Virus record (IMG/VR): IMGVR_UViG_3300045988_130193
Coordinates: 1-33,256 of that record
Strand: one strand, 5' to 3'
Length of the DNA: 33,256 bases
From: a virus
The notes beneath the pieces were generated by a model that was given only the letters and a program-made list of their open reading frames with translations, was not told the DNA's origin and did no database searches. The position numbers and the translations under genes are program-made. Each line of letters starts with the position of its first letter. Position 1 is the stretch's first letter. Below are positions 10,444-31,370 of the stretch, one piece after another.

Positions 10444-11934
10444 CTAACTTGTAAATGGAGCATTTAGTATGCAATTTAAGACATTATCTCCAATAGCAGT
10501 AATCTCACTAATAGTCAAATTATTATATATAATATTTGCCGAGTTTTCTATATCAACATTTCTTGTTATACTTTCGCCCTCTTGAATATTGCCACTTGCT
10601 TTATTTCTTTGATTATCAAACCAATTTATTGCTCTTTCACTATTGAACGAACTTGATAATTCATAAGTATAGAATATCTTTTCTTGGTCTGTTGTATTTA
10701 TTACTTTTATTTCTTTCCTTTTTACCATATAATCTTGTATTAAATCATCAATAGGGGCATCGAAGTGTACTATTTGCCCGATATTGTAAATATCTTTATC
10801 ATCAGTTACTACCTTTAAATTAACTTCTGCACTACCTTTATATTTAATATATGATTGTCCTACCTTATCAAGTTCTGCACTTGAAAGAACATCGTTTCTA
10901 TTCTCATATCTTGCTATAATTCCTTTTCTTCCTGTTTGATTTGCTATTCTATCTACTTCATCATTATTATACACGATTTGTCTGCCTTTTACAAGGGGTT
11001 GATAAACTACTTGTATTTGAGTACCAGCAATATAACTAGCATCTGTTTCTATTTGATTTTTCCCTGGTGTATAATAGAAATCTGCATCTATTCCTATATC
11101 TTTATTTGTTTTTGTTGTAAATGTCTTAGGAACACCATTTACAGATATACTTGCTATTGAACCTATATTTGAACTTGTTAAGAAGTTATTGTCATATCCA
11201 TTAGCAATTAATATTTCTGTATAATTTATACTAGCATATACTTCATCTGACTGCATTATTTGTTTATTTCTATAATCTCTACTTCCATAATTGAAAGAAA
11301 TATCATTTATATTATTTTCTTCAAACCAAGCAACATTATATTCAATATTCTTTCCTCTTGTCATTAATGTAGGGTCATAAAAGTCAATAGCAACCTTATC
11401 TTCATCAATAAGCCTTGTAAACCATTTAGAGCCTGTTATATCTGCTAAATATTGAAATACATCATAGGCAGTCTTATTCTGTGTTGAATAAGCACCAATT
11501 ATATCATCAGCACCAAATATATTGATATTCCCTAGCACGAAGCCATAATCTTTAATGGCATCTATTATCATCTCTATTGCTTCTGTTATGGTCTTATTAC
11601 TTATAACAAAGTCTAAAGTCTCACCCTCACTAAGTAAAGTCTTAAAGTCTAATATTTGCAAACTACAAAAGTGAGGATATCTAGGATTAAGACTTATATT
11701 ACCAGAATTTTTTACTACACCGCAAAAAACAAGTACATCATCTTTATATATCTTGCATTTTGAATAATCTTTTGGATAATAAAATCTTGAAGTATAATTT
11801 TTGTCATTTTCCCAACTTTTTGGATAGCAATTATTAAGAATGGTGGAGGAAGTAGTAAGTATTTCCTCTGTTATGGTAAACTCTTTATTACATACTACTT
11901 CTTCATCGTTTATTAACATTTTTAATCTACTCAT
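10444..11934 (-). CDS. Tail structural protein at the distal-tail (Dit) position
   Basis: 496 aa. Its start overlaps the tape-measure stop. The call is positional only. Confidence 0.5.
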   Translation of the reverse strand: MSRLKMLINDEEVVCNKEFTITEEILTTSSTILNNCYPKSWENDKNYTSRFYYPKDYSKCKIYKDDVLVFCGVVKNSGNISLNPRYPHFCSLQILDFKTLLSEGETLDFVISNKTITEAIEMIIDAIKDYGFVLGNINIFGADDIIGAYSTQNKTAYDVFQYLADITGSKWFTRLIDEDKVAIDFYDPTLMTRGKNIEYNVAWFEENNINDISFNYGSRDYRNKQIMQSDEVYASINYTEILIANGYDNNFLTSSNIGSIASISVNGVPKTFTTKTNKDIGIDADFYYTPGKNQIETDASYIAGTQIQVVYQPLVKGRQIVYNNDEVDRIANQTGRKGIIARYENRNDVLSSAELDKVGQSYIKYKGSAEVNLKVVTDDKDIYNIGQIVHFDAPIDDLIQDYMVKRKEIKVINTTDQEKIFYTYELSSSFNSERAINWFDNQRNKASGNIQEGESITRNVDIENSANIIYNNLTISEITAIGDNVLNCILNAPFTS

Positions 11935-11936
11935 AT

Positions 11937-13127
11937 TTATGCTCCTCCCATTCCATAATTATAATCATTTTTAGAACCACCACTAAATGTCTTAATATTA
12001 TTAACCATTTGTCCTAATGGGTCTTGTTCCATATTATTATTTACTACTACATTAACTTGTGGGCTTAAATTAGTACTTGAACTTCCATAAAGGCTAGGGG
12101 ATAAACTAAACATATCATCAAACATTCCTCCGACTGTTGAATTAACTTGTCCTTTCATATCTTCCATACCTTTTTCTAATCCAACCATATTCATCTTACC
12201 TATCCAAGCAAATTCTGTTGATGGACTATGTACTCCAAATATCCCTCTAATTTTTTTCATTATTGAATTACCTATACCTGCTATCTTGTTAAGTACCCAA
12301 TCTTTAGCAGACTTAATACCATTCCAAAGACCTTGTATTAAATTTTTACCACAATCCCACATCATTTGTGGCATTTTTTTGAAATAATCAACTAAATCAA
12401 CAACAATTTCGCCTGCTCTTGCTAGCAATATAGGTATAGCATTTAATATACCAGCAATTAAGCCCCCTAATAATTTAAAACCAGCCTCTATGAATAAAGG
12501 TAAATTATCAATTAATATAGGTATAGTGCTAAGAATAGCATCTATTATGACTGGTATCAATGTAGGTAATTGCTCTGCTAATGCTTGAATAATCATAACT
12601 AGCCCTTGAATTAATGAAGTAAGTATAACTGGTAGCATATTTGCTAATTCTTGAATTATAGTAGGCAACATACCCATTAATATTTGAATAATACCAGGTA
12701 ATGCTTGAACTAACCCCATTATTAATGTTGAAGTTCCTTGTATTAGTGCTGGTAATACCGCTTGAAGTAAAGGACCAATTAAAGGTATCAAATTATTCAA
12801 TAAAGTAGTTAGGCCAGTTATTATTTGAGGTGCCATTTTTACTATAGCATTTGATATATTTGTTCCAGCAGTAGTAAAGGTACTTATTACTTCTTCAATT
12901 CCACCTGCACCACTTAGGAAATTACTAAATGCTGACTTAGCACTATTTATTGAACCGCTTATAGTAGTAGATGCTTCTTTTGCTGTCGTTCCTGTTACAT
13001 CTAATTCTCCTTGAATTACATGAATAGCATTAAATACATCATTTAAATTAGAAATGTCATAATGTACTCCTGATATCTTTTCGGCGTCAGCAAGTAATCT
13101 TTCCATTTCTGTTTTTGTGCCACCATA
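11937..13127 (-). CDS. Tape measure protein, exon 2 (396 aa)
   Basis: Begins YGGTKTEMERLLADAEK. Contains a long Gly/Ala/Ile/Leu-rich hydrophobic helical region typical of tape-measure proteins. In frame with exon 1 once 13128..13364 is removed. Confidence 0.85.
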   Translation of the reverse strand, partial: YGGTKTEMERLLADAEKISGVHYDISNLNDVFNAIHVIQGELDVTGTTAKEASTTISGSINSAKSAFSNFLSGAGGIEEVISTFTTAGTNISNAIVKMAPQIITGLTTLLNNLIPLIGPLLQAVLPALIQGTSTLIMGLVQALPGIIQILMGMLPTIIQELANMLPVILTSLIQGLVMIIQALAEQLPTLIPVIIDAILSTIPILIDNLPLFIEAGFKLLGGLIAGILNAIPILLARAGEIVVDLVDYFKKMPQMMWDCGKNLIQGLWNGIKSAKDWVLNKIAGIGNSIMKKIRGIFGVHSPSTEFAWIGKMNMVGLEKGMEDMKGQVNSTVGGMFDDMFSLSPSLYGSSSTNLSPQVNVVVNNNMEQDPLGQMVNNIKTFSGGSKNDYNYGMGGA

Positions 13128-13364
13128 CACTTGTTAACATAAAAGTTTTTTATCTTTTATTTCTATATATTTATCATCTATATAGTTCAGCATATCTTTT
13201 CACTTATATAAAGTGCCGAAGCCTCGTGGAGGTATTATATCTTTTCAACCTCTATGCGTTGCCCCTGACTATACTTTGTATAGCCTTCGGTTCTGATTGC
13301 CCTTTTTTTGATGGGTTTCCAGTTTAATTCTTCGGTTTATACTCGGCTATGGTGTTTAATTTCA
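13128..13364 (-). ncRNA. ORF-less group I intron (IA-like) in the tape measure gene
   Basis: P1 pairs exon cucggU (13370..13365) with GCCGAG (13347..13342). P10 pairs ACCAUA (13353..13348) with exon-2 UAUGGU (13127..13122). The terminal nucleotide is G at 13128. P3, P7, P8 and P9 pairings can be drawn, and there is an AAGAUAU J8/7-like segment. Confidence 0.8.
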
Positions 13365-13868
13365 ACCGAGTTTTAAGTTATCTAACATTGTGTAATTCTG
13401 CTTTGCAAAACCTTGATAAGCATTTTGAATATTCTCAATTGCAGTACCGAACTTATTTGAGTTATCAGCCATATCTTGAATAGCCATATCGCCGACTTTA
13501 GCAGCCTCTTCTGTATCTCCACCTAGACTTTGCAACAAACTAGCACTAAATGAAGTTATTTGCTCCATATATTTATTGGCATCAATTCCGGCTGTTGTAT
13601 AAGCCTTTTTAGAATTCTCTATGACTGTATCAGCACTATCTTTGAAAAGTGTCTCTACACCACCGATATTCTGCTCTAAATCAGCAACACCTTGTAAGGC
13701 ATCTTTACCAAGTCCTAATAAAGAACTACCGACTTTTTCAATAGCACTAGACATTAAGTTACCAATAGCAATAGTACTTGCTTTCAATTTACCGGCGACA
13801 CCATTAGTCTTTTTTTCTAGGTCTTTATCATCTCCTTTAAACTTGAAGATGACTTCTCCTCCATTCAT
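13365..13868 (-). CDS. Tape measure protein, exon 1 (168 aa)
   Basis: Ends ...NAYQGFAKQNYTMLDNLKLG, followed by an in-frame TGA that belongs to the intron. GGAGG RBS. Confidence 0.85.
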
Positions 13869-13884
13869 TTATTCCACCTCCTTG

Positions 13885-13921
13885 TTATAAAATAAAGGGC
13901 TGGGCTTTTAACCCAACCCTT
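13885..13921 (-). terminator. Hairpin plus U-rich tract between the major tail and tape measure genes (partial terminator/attenuator)
   Basis: Minus-strand RNA has a 10-bp stem aaggguuggg/cccagcccuu (13921..13912 with 13904..13895), followed by uauuuuau. The single non-Watson-Crick pair is G.U only on the minus strand. Confidence 0.6.
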
Positions 13922-13927
13922 ATAGGT

Positions 13928-14401
13928 TTATTGTGTTACAACTTCTCCTTTGCCAGTTACAACAATAGTTAATGCAAACTCGCCACTATCTTCAGCAGCA
14001 CCGCCTAAATCACTAAAGTTCAAAGTACAAGGTACTTTATATTTAGTATAAGTCAATGCTCCTTCTTGAACTCCTGTTAATAATTCGAATTGTACCAATT
14101 GATTGTTGAATTGAGCAACAGTACCATCTTTGATTAATGCATGAATATCGCCTAATATTTTAACTATAGAAGCATTATTCATGTCAATTTTAACAGTGGT
14201 ATCAATAGATATGGCAGCACCAGTGATTAAACTTCTTTGAATGGCATCGCACCAAACATACCAGTCTTGTTGTTCGAAATCAGTTGTCAAACCAACCTCG
14301 GTAGTTGTACACATGGCAGTAAATGCAGGTACTGCACTAGTACCAGTATTTAAACCTAAGTTTTTGATGACTTCTCTATTATTTACATAAAATTCATTCA
14401 T
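13928..14401 (-). CDS. Major tail protein
   Basis: 157 aa, immediately upstream of the tape-measure gene. Composition is beta-rich and Thr/Gly/Ala-rich. Followed by an attenuator hairpin, as expected for a highly expressed tube gene. Confidence 0.65.
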   Translation of the reverse strand: MNEFYVNNREVIKNLGLNTGTSAVPAFTAMCTTTEVGLTTDFEQQDWYVWCDAIQRSLITGAAISIDTTVKIDMNNASIVKILGDIHALIKDGTVAQFNNQLVQFELLTGVQEGALTYTKYKVPCTLNFSDLGGAAEDSGEFALTIVVTGKGEVVTQ

Positions 14402-30660: not shown

Positions 30661-30864
30661 TTACCACTTATAAGTCAACATTAGATATAATATATAAATT
30701 AATATCGTTGCTAAGACTAATAAATTAATTATAATCAAATATGCTTTTATATCTTCTTGTTTATTCTTTTTTAGTGTTCTTAATTGTTCTCTTTCAGTCT
30801 TACTTGTAGGGAATTCTTTTTTTAATTTCCACATTTGATATTTACTTATCTTTTCCGGTTTCAT
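30661..30864 (-). CDS. Small membrane protein
   Basis: 67 aa with a C-terminal TM helix. Confidence 0.45.
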   Translation of the reverse strand: MKPEKISKYQMWKLKKEFPTSKTEREQLRTLKKNKQEDIKAYLIIINLLVLATILIYILYLMLTYKW

Positions 30865-31370
30865 TTTATCCTCCTAAAATCTTTGCAAGCCTCTGTATTT
30901 TTCGTTATTCTTATTTTTCTATATCTACAATAATATGTTGGTATCGAATTACTTTTTACTTGCCTTTTTTCTAATAATCTGCAATTTTTACATCTATCTT
31001 TTATTTCTTTTTTCTCTTCTGATATTATAATTCTTTCTCTAAGGTCGTTTTTCTTATCATATTTAAGTGTTTTCATTAACTCGGTAATACTTAATATATT
31101 CTCTTTTTTTACTAAATATTCGGCGCAATAGGTATGTATTTCATTTCTTAATGAAGTATCTTTGCCATTATCTAATGCTTGATGACATTTAATACATAAC
31201 ATAACCCCATTCTCTTTACAGCCTTTTCCACCATGTGCTCTTGATAAGAATATATGTGCTATTTGCAAAGCCCCATTATTTCCACAAAATACACACCTAT
31301 TATTATCTCTTTTTTTTATATACTTTCTTGTTTCTTTATCAAACTCGCAAAATTGACTTCTTATACTCAT
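30861..31370 (-). CDS. HNH endonuclease
   Basis: CVFCG...AHIF..(GG)..NGVMLCIKCH is the HNH beta-beta-alpha-metal motif. There is an extra C-terminal Cys cluster. Confidence 0.8.
   Translation of the reverse strand: MSIRSQFCEFDKETRKYIKKRDNNRCVFCGNNGALQIAHIFLSRAHGGKGCKENGVMLCIKCHQALDNGKDTSLRNEIHTYCAEYLVKKENILSITELMKTLKYDKKNDLRERIIISEEKKEIKDRCKNCRLLEKRQVKSNSIPTYYCRYRKIRITKNTEACKDFRRIK

What the first reader, a model, noticed from the sequence alone, without database searches (positions are those of the whole stretch)
13128..13364. Tape measure gene split by a compact ORF-less group I intron
ORFs 13362..13868 and 11937..13130 are two halves of one tape-measure protein. The first ends ...QNYTMLDNLKLG. 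The second continues YGGTKTEMERLL after a spurious GTG. From memory, uninterrupted Firmicutes-phage tape-measure proteins carry this as one block (...MLDNLKLGYGGTK...). The 237 nt in between is visibly more GC-rich and more structured than its surroundings, and it shows the diagnostic group I geometry:
- P1: the 5' exon ends in U, and cucggU (13370..13365) pairs with GCCGAG (13347..13342), giving the U.G wobble at the splice site.
- P10: the six nt immediately 5' of that guide, ACCAUA (13353..13348), are perfectly complementary to the first six nt of exon 2, UAUGGU (13127..13122).
- The last intron nucleotide is G (13128).
- P3: ccgaag 13335..13330 with cuucgg 13221..13216.
- P4/P5/P6 candidates lie in 13322..13267.
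- P7: ucag 13268..13265 with cuga 13190..13187.
- An extra hairpin (13252..13228) lies between P7 and P3', as in subgroup IA phage introns.
- P8: cacuu/aagug 13215..13201, followed by an AAAAGAUAUG J8/7-like segment.
- P9 hairpin: 13185..13163.
Removing 13128..13364 restores the reading frame exactly, giving a 564-aa tape-measure protein. There is no homing endonuclease inside the intron. The free-standing HNH gene at 30861..31370 could act in trans, but that is speculation. Automated callers would report two unrelated tail ORFs here.
Basis: partly seen in the sequence, partly recalled or inferred. Interest (0 to 1): 0.85.

Follow-up and report, generated by a model that had tools for sequence, protein, structure and literature searches.

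The report
Self-splicing intron splits phage tail gene
A 237-base group I intron with no gene of its own interrupts the tape-measure (tail-length) gene of an uncultivated gut phage; this is a real but familiar kind of element, and phage tape-measure genes are already known to carry such introns at this very spot.

Summary
ORFs 13362..13868(-) and 11937..13130(-) are two halves of one tape-measure gene. They are separated by 237 nt (13128..13364) that behave as a group I intron.

- **Precise absence.** Contigs of the same phage lineage, about 93-95% identical in DNA, lack exactly these 237 nt and encode an uninterrupted 564-aa protein.
- **Same site elsewhere.** Lactococcus phage r1t and Streptococcus phage MissG1 carry an intervening sequence at the same KLG|YGGT position. 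MissG1 has the identical guide sequence, and Rfam recognises its intron.
- **Homology.** The core is homologous to the terminase intron of Lactobacillus phage JCL1032, whose introns are reported as self-splicing. It is also homologous to intervening sequences that split essential genes in many phages.
- **Covariation.** A covariance model built from my structure finds 111 relatives, with 96.8% of cells paired against 32-44% in slid controls.

- P7 is GCAUA/UAUGC (13257..13253 / 13194..13190), not UCAG/CUGA.
- Rfam's Intron_gpI model does not hit the window. It also misses JCL1032, so that miss says little.
- The free-standing HNH gene is unrelated to the five intron-borne or intron-adjacent endonucleases (and JCL1032 ORF4) that I compared.

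Verdict: new member of a known kind. The side finding is that this lineage has three intron sites within 100 nt, in many combinations.

The parts
13365..13868 (-). Exon 1 of the tape-measure gene (codons 1-168, ends ..NLKLG; last base U)
   Evidence: ORF list and sequence. Strong Shine-Dalgarno AAGGAGGTG upstream of the ATG. 93% identical in DNA to the intronless contig L006.
13128..13364 (-). Group I intron, 237 nt, no ORF. It begins with an in-frame UGA (13364..13362) and ends with G (13128).
   Evidence: Exactly this stretch is absent from intronless alleles. Stops in all three frames. CM R1 gives the only hit in the window here, at 13120..13372, 303 bits.
11937..13127 (-). Exon 2 of the tape-measure gene (codons 169-564 plus stop; begins UAUGGU = YG)
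   Evidence: There is no Shine-Dalgarno before the apparent GTG start at 13130. PHROG tape-measure profiles run across the junction, e.g. phrog_6900 over residues 10-205.
13342..13353 (-). Internal guide sequence ACCAUA|GCCGAG. The 3' half pairs with the exon 1 end (P1, 13370..13365, U.G at the splice site). The 5' half pairs with the exon 2 start (P10, 13127..13122).
   Evidence: It is the only site in the window that can pair with the whole ligated junction. The guide is identical in the MissG1 intron at the same site. Exon and guide covary in r1t (CUGGGU/GCUCAG) and L007 (UUGGGU/GCUCAA).
13216..13335 (-). P3 (CCGAAG 13335..13330 with CUUCGG 13221..13216). It encloses P4-P6, the 5' strand of P7, and P7.1.
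   Evidence: All 6 pairs show double changes and 97.9% of cells are paired across 108 distinct sequences. Recovered independently by RNAalifold.
13293..13322 (-). P4 (CUGG 13322..13319 with UCAG 13296..13293) and P5 (CCC 13315..13313 with GGG 13302..13300)
   Evidence: (P4 99.2% paired; P5 77.1%).
13264..13290 (-). P6 (CC 13290..13289 plus GGCUAUAC 13285..13278, with GUAUAGUC 13274..13267 plus GG 13265..13264). This is the family's signature motif AACCGAAGGCU...GUCAGGGGCA.
   Evidence: (99-100% paired). The motif is found in more than 120 viral contigs.
13190..13257 (-). P7 (GCAUA 13257..13253 with UAUGC 13194..13190). It forms a pseudoknot with P3. The J8/7-like AAAAGA lies at 13200..13195.
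   Evidence: P7 was not part of the CM structure, yet 96.8% of cells are paired and two positions show compensatory changes. Variants read directly in relatives are GACUA/UAGUC (L004), GCUUA/UAAGC (PMBT8) and GCGUA/UACGC (phiCP39-O).
13229..13252 (-). P7.1 hairpin (GAGGU 13252..13248 with ACCUC 13233..13229), with the conserved loop UGAA..AUAUAAU, followed by the conserved CACGAG
   Evidence: 99.1% paired, all 5 pairs with double changes; conserved loop.
13201..13215 (-). P8 (CACUU with AAGUG)
   Evidence: The closing pair C-G becomes A-U in sister introns at the same site.
13139..13185 (-). P9 (CUAUAUA 13185..13179 with UAUAUAG 13169..13163) and P9.1 (AUAAAAG 13160..13154 with CUUUUAU 13145..13139, conserved loop GAUAAAAA)
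   Evidence: 98-99% paired; P9.1 predicted as 7 bp.

Best explanation
Bases 13128..13364 on the minus strand are a compact group I intron of subgroup IA type. It has P1, P3-P9, P7.1, P9.1 and P10, but no P2 and no ORF, and it sits in phase 0 between codons 168 and 169 of the tape-measure gene.

**Inferred mechanism (the canonical one for the class)**
1. In the late transcript, the guide sequence 13353..13342 pairs with the last six bases of exon 1. This is P1, with the U.G wobble marking the 5' splice site.
2. A free guanosine bound at P7 attacks that site.
3. The 5' half of the guide aligns exon 2 (P10), and the terminal G at 13128 takes the G-binding site.
4. The exons are ligated, giving an mRNA for one 564-aa tape-measure protein (..MLDNLKLG-YGGTKTEMERLL..).
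5. Ribosomes on unspliced RNA stop at the UGA that forms the first intron codon. Exon 2 has no ribosome-binding site of its own.

**Shown here**
- The precise 237-nt presence/absence polymorphism.
- Restoration of the reading frame.
- The structure and its covariation.
- Homology to known introns.
- Sharing of the insertion site with other phages.

**Inferred, not shown**
- Catalysis itself.
- The route of spread. With no endonuclease gene, the intron probably moves by recombination between co-infecting phages, or with a nuclease supplied in trans. One candidate source is the HNH_3/NUMOD4 gene inside the r1t-type intron that occupies the same site in sister phages.
For: **(1) Intronless alleles**
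- Dozens of 564-aa proteins 95-98% identical to the conceptual product lie on ~32-33 kb contigs.
- Contig L006 aligns to window 11900-13900(-) as 1-537 and 774-2001 with nothing in between.
- Five of 19 IMG/VR contigs of the lineage are intronless.

**(2) Protein continuity**
- PHROG tape-measure profiles cross the junction in a single stretch.
- The intronless Javan407 gene reads KLGFGGTK.

**(3) Same site in other phages**
- MissG1 carries an Rfam-recognised Intron_gpI (69 bits) after the same GGU, with the identical guide ACCAUAGCCGAG.
- r1t and L007 carry HNH-containing intervening sequences at the same site. Their guides covary with synonymous exon changes.

**(4) Homology of the core**
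- blastn of the 237 nt hits unannotated gaps in split genes: terL, gyrA, RNA polymerase and major capsid.
- It hits the JCL1032 terL intron. The CDS is annotated as a join, and the 226-nt intron restores the Walker A motif GRKNG|KTT.
- JCL1032 introns are reported as self-splicing (Riipinen & Alatossava 2004, as cited in PMC6669764).

**(5) Structure**
- CM R1 gives 111 hits, only one of them in the window.
- 96.8% of cells are paired against 32-44% when partners are slid. 53 of 56 pairs have double changes. The covariation score is 0.539 against 0.04-0.09.
- P7, which was not in the model, is also supported.
- MAFFT plus RNAalifold independently recovers P3-P9.1, with 34 of 46 pairs compensatory.

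**(6) Sister contigs with several introns**
- Sister contigs carry up to three intervening sequences, separated by exons of 77 and 22 nt that stay in frame and conserved. This only makes sense if the RNA is spliced.

**(7) Precedent**
- Group I introns in tape-measure genes are documented. Known cases include ORF-less introns and different introns sharing one site with the same P1/IGS (PMC2504315).
Against: - No Rfam RF00028 hit at the gathering score or at E<=10. This is weakened because the same model misses the JCL1032 terL intron, the r1t locus, L004 and L007, and scores L009 intron 2 below threshold.
- No transcript or biochemical data exist for this phage.
- The pair counts rest on a model-fitted alignment, which leans towards the structure. 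P1 and the terminal-G column are poorly aligned family-wide.
- The subgroup (IA1 versus IA2) and the exact G-binding geometry were not resolved.
Confidence: 0.93

Rival explanations
1. The 237 nt are a dead insertion, either an inactive intron remnant or another small mobile element. On this view the tape-measure gene is a pseudogene, or is expressed as two separate polypeptides.
For: Gene callers do report separate 168-aa and 397-aa products, and many such fragments are in public collections. No splicing data exist. Rfam does not recognise the element.
Against: - The tape-measure protein is essential, and this allele recurs in several contigs with intact exons.
- Exon 2 has no ribosome-binding site.
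- All core helices are intact, and sister copies differ by compensatory changes, e.g. the P8 pair C-G to A-U.
- The guide still matches both exon ends.
- Relatives have a 22-nt exon between two intervening sequences, which cannot be a separate protein.
Confidence: 0.04
2. Programmed translational bypassing, as in T4 gene 60. The ribosome would take off at GGU (13367..13365) before the UGA and land at the GGU at 13124..13122, skipping the gap without RNA splicing.
For: A Gly codon is followed at once by a stop. A matching GGU lies just after the gap, and the gap is structured.
Against: - The bypass product would read KLG-GTK and lack Y-G, whereas intronless homologues read KLG[Y/F]GGTK. That is exactly the spliced product.
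- The gap would be about 240 nt, against 50 nt in gene 60 (from memory).
- The gap has the conserved, covarying architecture of a group I intron and is homologous to introns in unrelated genes.
Confidence: 0.01
3. It is a group I intron, but it cannot splice on its own and depends on a host or phage protein cofactor. Splicing would then act as a regulated step in late gene expression.
For: The ribozyme is small and AT-rich (33% GC), lacks P2 and has short P4/P5 helices. Some group I introns are known to need protein help (general knowledge, from memory).
Against: Its homologue in the JCL1032 terL gene comes from a phage whose two introns are reported as self-splicing. All the core elements are present.
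Confidence: 0.15

Closest known systems
Lactobacillus delbrueckii phage JCL1032 terminase (terL) group I intron (Riipinen & Alatossava 2004, as cited in PMC6669764)
   Same: - Same RNA family: P7 GCAUA/UAUGC, an identical P7.1 hairpin and loop, CACGAG, the J8/7 segment, the P9.1 loop GAUAAAAAG and the GAUAACA tail.
- Both are ORF-less and about 230 nt.
- blastn gives 94% identity over 35 nt, and CM R1 scores it at 78.5 bits.
   Different: - It sits in a different host gene, terL, splitting the Walker A motif.
- Its guide sequence is different.
- Its P4-P6 region lacks the AACCGAAGGCU..GUCAGGGGCA motif.
- P3, P8, P9 and P9.1 differ by fully compensatory changes.
Lactococcus phage r1t ORF40-41-42 intron (van Sinderen et al. 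1996; that it was described as a group I intron is from memory) and the same type in sister contig L007
   Same: - Same gene and the same insertion point (KLG|YGGT).
- P1 is built on the same exon bases, with guide/exon covariation.
   Different: - It carries an HNH-type homing endonuclease ORF and is about 790-930 nt long.
- Its core is a different lineage (..GUAACGACUAUCG.. / ..GAGAUAGUCUA..), related to MissG1 and not to the window.
- CM R1 does not hit it.
Streptococcus phage MissG1 tape-measure intron (annotated ncRNA; Rfam Intron_gpI, 69 bits)
   Same: - Same site, with the identical 12-nt guide ACCAUAGCCGAG followed by UAUAAACC.
- ORF-less.
- CM R1 detects it at 64 bits.
   Different: - It is longer: about 280 nt from the splice sites, while the Rfam match 1936-2223 spans 288 nt and overlaps exon 1.
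- Its P4-P6 region follows the Rfam consensus and its P7 is GACUA/UAGUC.
- Rfam recognises it, whereas the window intron is not recognised.
TMP-IVS1/2/3 group I introns of Bacillus cereus-group prophages (Tourasse & Kolsto 2008, PMC2504315)
   Same: - Several intron sites within one tape-measure gene.
- ORF-less or endonuclease-degenerate copies.
- Different introns at one site that share P1/IGS.
- Subgroups IA1/IA2.
   Different: - The hosts and tape-measure proteins are different (>1200 aa there).
- I could not compare the insertion sites or the sequences directly.

Membership tests
Group I intron | P1 helix formed by the 5' exon end and an internal guide sequence, with a U.G wobble at the 5' splice site | tested here: met
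   CUCGGU (13370..13365) pairs with GCCGAG (13347..13342) and the last exon base is U. Exon and guide covary in r1t and L007. It is the only fully complementary site in the window.
Group I intron | Terminal guanosine (omega-G) at the 3' end, and P10 pairing with the 3' exon | tested here: met
   G at 13128. ACCAUA (13353..13348) pairs with UAUGGU (13127..13122). The same arrangement is seen in MissG1. P10 could not be counted family-wide because its 5' strand lies in unaligned loop columns.
Group I intron | Conserved core P3-P9 in the canonical order, with the P3/P7 pseudoknot, supported by covariation | tested here: met
   96.8% of cells paired against 32-44% in slid controls, and 53 of 56 pairs with double changes. 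P7 is supported although it was not in the model. RNAalifold on a MAFFT alignment recovers P3, P4, P5, P6, P7.1, P8, P9 and P9.1.
Group I intron | Score at or above the gathering threshold of Rfam RF00028 (Intron_gpI) | tested here: not met
   No hit at the gathering score on the whole window or at E<=10 on 13050..13450. As a control, the same model also misses the annotated JCL1032 terL intron and the r1t locus. This therefore reflects the model's coverage and is not evidence against membership.
Group I intron | Precise absence from intronless alleles, with restoration of the host reading frame | tested here: met
   L006 and five IMG/VR contigs lack exactly the 237 nt. There are 564-aa homologues at 95-98% identity.
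Group I intron | Homology to an intron shown experimentally to self-splice | tested here: met
   JCL1032 terL intron: blastn match, direct sequence comparison and CM R1 at 78.5 bits over the annotated join gap. Self-splicing of the JCL1032 introns is taken from the literature.
Group I intron | Guanosine- and Mg-dependent self-splicing of the transcript | not testable with these tools
   This needs in vitro transcription and splicing, or RT-PCR from infected cells.
Group I intron, subgroup IA | Extra helix or helices (P7.1/P7.2) between P7 and the 3' strand of P3 | tested here: met
   Hairpin 13252..13229, 99.1% paired with all five pairs covarying. Larger relatives carry a second nested hairpin in its loop. 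IA1 versus IA2 was not resolved.
Mobile (homing) group I intron | Intron-encoded homing endonuclease ORF | tested here: not met
   Stops in all three frames, and 237 nt in total. The free-standing HNH gene at 30861..31370 shows no similarity to the five intron-borne or intron-adjacent endonucleases, or to JCL1032 ORF4, that were compared.
Programmed translational bypass (T4 gene 60 type) | A take-off and landing codon pair whose use yields the conserved protein sequence | tested here: not met
   GGU..UGA and a downstream GGU do exist. The bypass product would lack the Y-G that is present in all intronless homologues.

The most novel reading that the evidence does not exclude
In this gut-phage lineage the first 500 nt of the tape-measure gene may be an arena where at least four intron lineages compete for three sites within 100 nt. 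On this reading the ORF-less window-type intron persists because, by occupying the KLG|YGGT site, it destroys the target of the HNH_3/NUMOD4 endonuclease carried by the r1t-type intron of co-infecting relatives. It would spread by 'collaborative homing' on that nuclease. It would also be one member of a large clade of compact (~210-260 nt), mostly ORF-less phage ribozymes that the standard Rfam model does not detect.
Probability: 0.15. Interest if true: 0.5.

Novelty: new member of a known kind. Interest (0 to 1): 0.33.

Why it matters
- **Annotation.** The gene should be annotated as one spliced 564-aa tape-measure protein, not as two unrelated tail ORFs. Public collections already hold hundreds of such 389- to 404-aa fragments.
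- **Detection.** Rfam's Intron_gpI model misses this family entirely. The family has more than 100 members in viral contigs, so phage intron counts based on Rfam are underestimates. A dedicated covariance model recovers them easily.
- **Evolution.** The lineage is a natural series: intronless alleles, alleles with one, two or three introns, and endonuclease genes that are full-length, degenerate or absent. Such a series could be used to study intron gain, decay and loss in gut phages.
- **Limits.** None of this changes what is known about how group I introns work.

Tried and rejected
- **Rfam.** I ran it at the gathering score on the whole window and at E<=10 on the locus. Nothing was found. 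I treat this as uninformative after the controls.
- **Known close relative.** megablast of 25 kb against known phages found no close relative. Only 64-99 nt next to the intron site match lactococcal phages.
- **Family alignment.** A plain MAFFT alignment of distant family members was too poor in the 5' third to use, so I switched to a CM-guided alignment.
- **P10, U.G and omega-G family-wide.** These could not be counted, because the P1 loop and the 3' tail vary in length.
Rejected, because those bases belong to P6.
- **HNH gene in trans.** No similarity to the endonucleases compared, so the idea is unsupported. It is not excluded.
- **Pfam.** No hit on the spliced protein. The PHROG profiles were informative instead.
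- **r1t paper.** The original paper (PMID 8730875) is not held in the library. Its description of the r1t element as a group I intron, and any splicing evidence it holds, rest on my memory.
- **Translational bypass.** Considered and rejected on the product sequence.

Full report
**1. The observation**

On the minus strand, ORF 13362..13868 (168 aa) ends ..QNYTMLDNLKLG and is followed by TGA. ORF 11937..13130 (397 aa) begins GTG-YGGTKTEMERLL. Deleting 13128..13364 (237 nt) joins GGU to UAU in frame and gives a 564-aa product.

- Exon 1 has a strong ribosome-binding site (AAGGAGGTG). The apparent GTG start of the second ORF has none.
- The intervening stretch has stops in all three frames.
- It folds much better than shuffled sequence, with z = -4.55.
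- Its 5' core reaches 42% GC. The whole element is 33%, against 32-36% for the exons and 27.9% for the window.

**2. Is it one gene?**

Yes, for three reasons.

- PHROG tape-measure profiles align across the junction in a single stretch. phrog_6900 covers residues 10-205, and phrog_3981 covers 13-505.
- A search of about 5.8 billion proteins found dozens of uninterrupted 564-aa proteins, 95-98% identical to the conceptual product, on ~32-33 kb contigs. The contigs I looked up are from gut metagenomes. The same search also found abundant 389-, 397- and 404-aa C-terminal fragments, which represent interrupted alleles.
- Contig L006 encodes one of the uninterrupted proteins. It aligns to window 11900..13900(-) as 1-537 and 774-2001 with nothing between, so the absence is exactly 237 nt, allowing for a one-base T/T ambiguity.
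- The more distant, intronless Streptococcus phage Javan407 reads ..MLDNLKLGFGGTKEE...

**3. Is the insert a group I intron?**

Rfam RF00028 gives no hit at the gathering score or at E<=10 on 13050..13450. Controls show this is a limit of the model:

- It does find the MissG1 tape-measure intron (69 bits) and a second intron in L003 (77 bits).
- It misses the split r1t tape-measure locus and the JCL1032 terL intron, whose CDS is annotated as a join. It also misses L004 and L007.
- It scores L009 intron 2 at only 32 bits.

The positive evidence is comparative.

(a) *Same site in other phages.* MissG1 has its Rfam-recognised intron after the same ..AAA CUC GGU, with the identical guide ACCAUAGCCGAG, and exon 2 starts UAUGGUGGU. 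r1t and sister contig L007 carry HNH-containing intervening sequences at the same point. Their guides track synonymous exon changes: CUCGGU/GCCGAG in the window, CUGGGU/GCUCAG in r1t and UUGGGU/GCUCAA in L007.

(b) *Homology of the core.* blastn of the 237 nt against 50,697 phage records hits unannotated gaps inside split genes:

| Phage | Split gene |
|---|---|
| PMBT8, LIS04, vB_EauM-23, JCL1032 | terL |
| phiR1-37, BpSp | gyrA |
| Aeromonas phage AhC3_1 | RNA polymerase |
| bajarodcaudo virus 1 | major capsid |

The JCL1032 terL intron (226 nt) restores the Walker A motif GRKNG|KTT. It matches the window element helix for helix:
- P7 and P7.1 are identical.
- P3, P8, P9 and P9.1 differ by fully compensatory changes.

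JCL1032's introns are reported as self-splicing (Riipinen & Alatossava 2004, cited in PMC6669764).

(c) *Structure.* My model of the window element (coordinates) has P1, P3, P4, P5, P6, P7, P7.1, P8, P9, P9.1 and P10. It has no P2.

- A covariance model built from the window plus three sister copies found 111 matches at E<=1e-3 in 98 sources. Only one is in the window (13120..13372, 303 bits). The matches include JCL1032 (78.5 bits) and the Rfam-certified MissG1 intron (64 bits).
- On that alignment, 96.8% of cells are paired against 32-44% when partners are slid by 1-3 columns. 53 of 56 pairs have changes on both sides. The covariation score is 0.539 against 0.04-0.09.
- The alignment is fitted to the model, which inflates these figures. 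Two checks answer this. P7 was not in the model and is still 96.8% paired with compensatory variants. An independent MAFFT plus RNAalifold run on 16 members recovers P3 through P9.1, with 34 of 46 pairs compensatory.
- The 12-nt guide is the only site on either strand of the window that can pair with the whole ligated junction. About 0.5 are expected per 33 kb, so about 5e-4 for one lying within 30 nt of the splice site.

**4.

- P7 is GCAUA (13257..13253) with UAUGC (13194..13190). The proposed UCAG (13268..13265) is part of the 3' strand of P6.
- The HNH gene at 30861..31370 is a weak HNH_2 match. It has no detectable similarity to the endonucleases compared (L003, L004, L007, r1t) or to JCL1032 ORF4.

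**5. How it works**

The mechanism below is inferred from the class.

1. P1 presents the U.G pair.
2. Exogenous G bound at P7 cleaves the 5' splice site.
3. P10 and the terminal G at 13128 position the 3' splice site.
4. The exons are ligated.
5. The in-frame UGA at the first intron codon stops ribosomes on unspliced RNA.

The intron has no endonuclease gene, so its spread is probably passive (recombination) or helped in trans. Trans-acting homing endonucleases and collaborative homing are documented for ORF-less phage introns (PMC3984707).

**6. Population context**

Among 19 IMG/VR contigs of this lineage there are three insertion sites within 100 nt: CDS position 405/406, 482/483 and 504/505. 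Configurations counted:

| Configuration | Contigs |
|---|---|
| No intron | 5 |
| Site C only, window type (L149, nearly identical to the window) | 1 |
| Site B only | 4 |
| Sites B + C | 4 |
| Sites A + B + C | 3 |
| Site A + an r1t-type intron at C | 1 |
| One unresolved 1129-nt insertion | 1 |

- Insert sizes fall in series: 863/419/362 nt at A, 843/388/314 nt at B, and 792 versus 230-237 nt at C. For site A the series runs from a full NUMOD4/HNH_3 ORF (L007) to a 41-aa NUMOD4 fragment (L009). For the rest, endonuclease decay is inferred from size alone.
- In L009 the exons between introns are only 77 and 22 nt long.

**7. Comparison with what is known**

Group I introns in phage tape-measure genes are well documented. 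Tourasse & Kolsto (PMC2504315) describe three sites in Bacillus cereus-group prophage tape-measure genes, ORF-less copies, and different IA1 introns sharing one site with the same P1/IGS. Their Table 3 also lists a JCL1032 tape-measure intron. From memory, r1t (1996) is the earliest case at this motif. The window element is therefore a new member of a known kind. Two things are mildly new: the family is invisible to Rfam's model, and this lineage shows an unusually dense and variable cluster of introns.

**8. Verdict**

- The finding is correct in substance, with confidence about 0.93 that this is a splicing group I intron.
- Interest is modest (0.33).
- Splicing itself remains untested.

Noticed in passing
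L009 1366-1784, 1862-2249, 2272-2503 (also L150, L161, L163): Close relatives of this phage carry three intervening sequences in the same gene within 100 nt of coding sequence. The exons between them are only 77 and 22 nt. The middle one scores 32 bits (E=3.7e-6) with Rfam Intron_gpI, below the gathering score. The first carries a full or degenerate NUMOD4/HNH_3 gene.
   Followed up: partly
L146-L164 (19 IMG/VR contigs of the lineage): Seven different intron configurations occur at three sites, from none to three introns. Insert sizes fall in series (863/419/362, 843/388/314, 792 versus 230-237 nt) that look like stepwise decay of the endonuclease genes. The window's configuration (site C only) is rare, seen in 1 of 19.
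   Followed up: partly
window 13334..13432: This is the only megablast-level similarity between 25 kb of the window and any of 50,697 known phage genomes. It covers the 64-99 nt of exon 1 (and, in r1t, the first 31 nt of the intron) next to the insertion site, at 83-91% identity to lactococcal P335-group phages, including intronless ones. It could reflect an unusually conserved target motif or co-conversion tracts. I did not resolve which.
   Followed up: no
Most CM hits are full-length and 226-320 nt, so they are ORF-less. Several contigs have two or three hits (L029, L030, L076, L100). I did not survey which genes they interrupt.
   Followed up: partly
window 30861..31370 (-): A free-standing 169-aa HNH protein (Pfam HNH_2, E=4.5e-5) lies in the early region. 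It shows no similarity to the intron-borne or intron-adjacent endonucleases compared. Its role is unknown.
   Followed up: partly
window 13869..14401 (-): Only 59 nt separate the 157-aa ORF 13928..14401 from the tape-measure start. No pair of tail-chaperone ORFs with a frameshift is evident between a tail-tube candidate and the tape-measure gene. None of the upstream ORFs tested had a Pfam match.
   Followed up: no
window 13115..13327 (+): A 70-aa TTG ORF lies antisense to the intron. It is low-complexity and lies entirely within structured RNA, so it is almost certainly spurious.
   Followed up: no
L003 (bajarodcaudo virus 1) 150-2810: The major capsid gene of this 98.6-kb phage is annotated in at least three pieces. 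Between them lie an 'intron associated endonuclease', a window-family intron with an ORF in its 5' half, and a separate Rfam-recognised group I intron (2496-2809, 77 bits).
   Followed up: no
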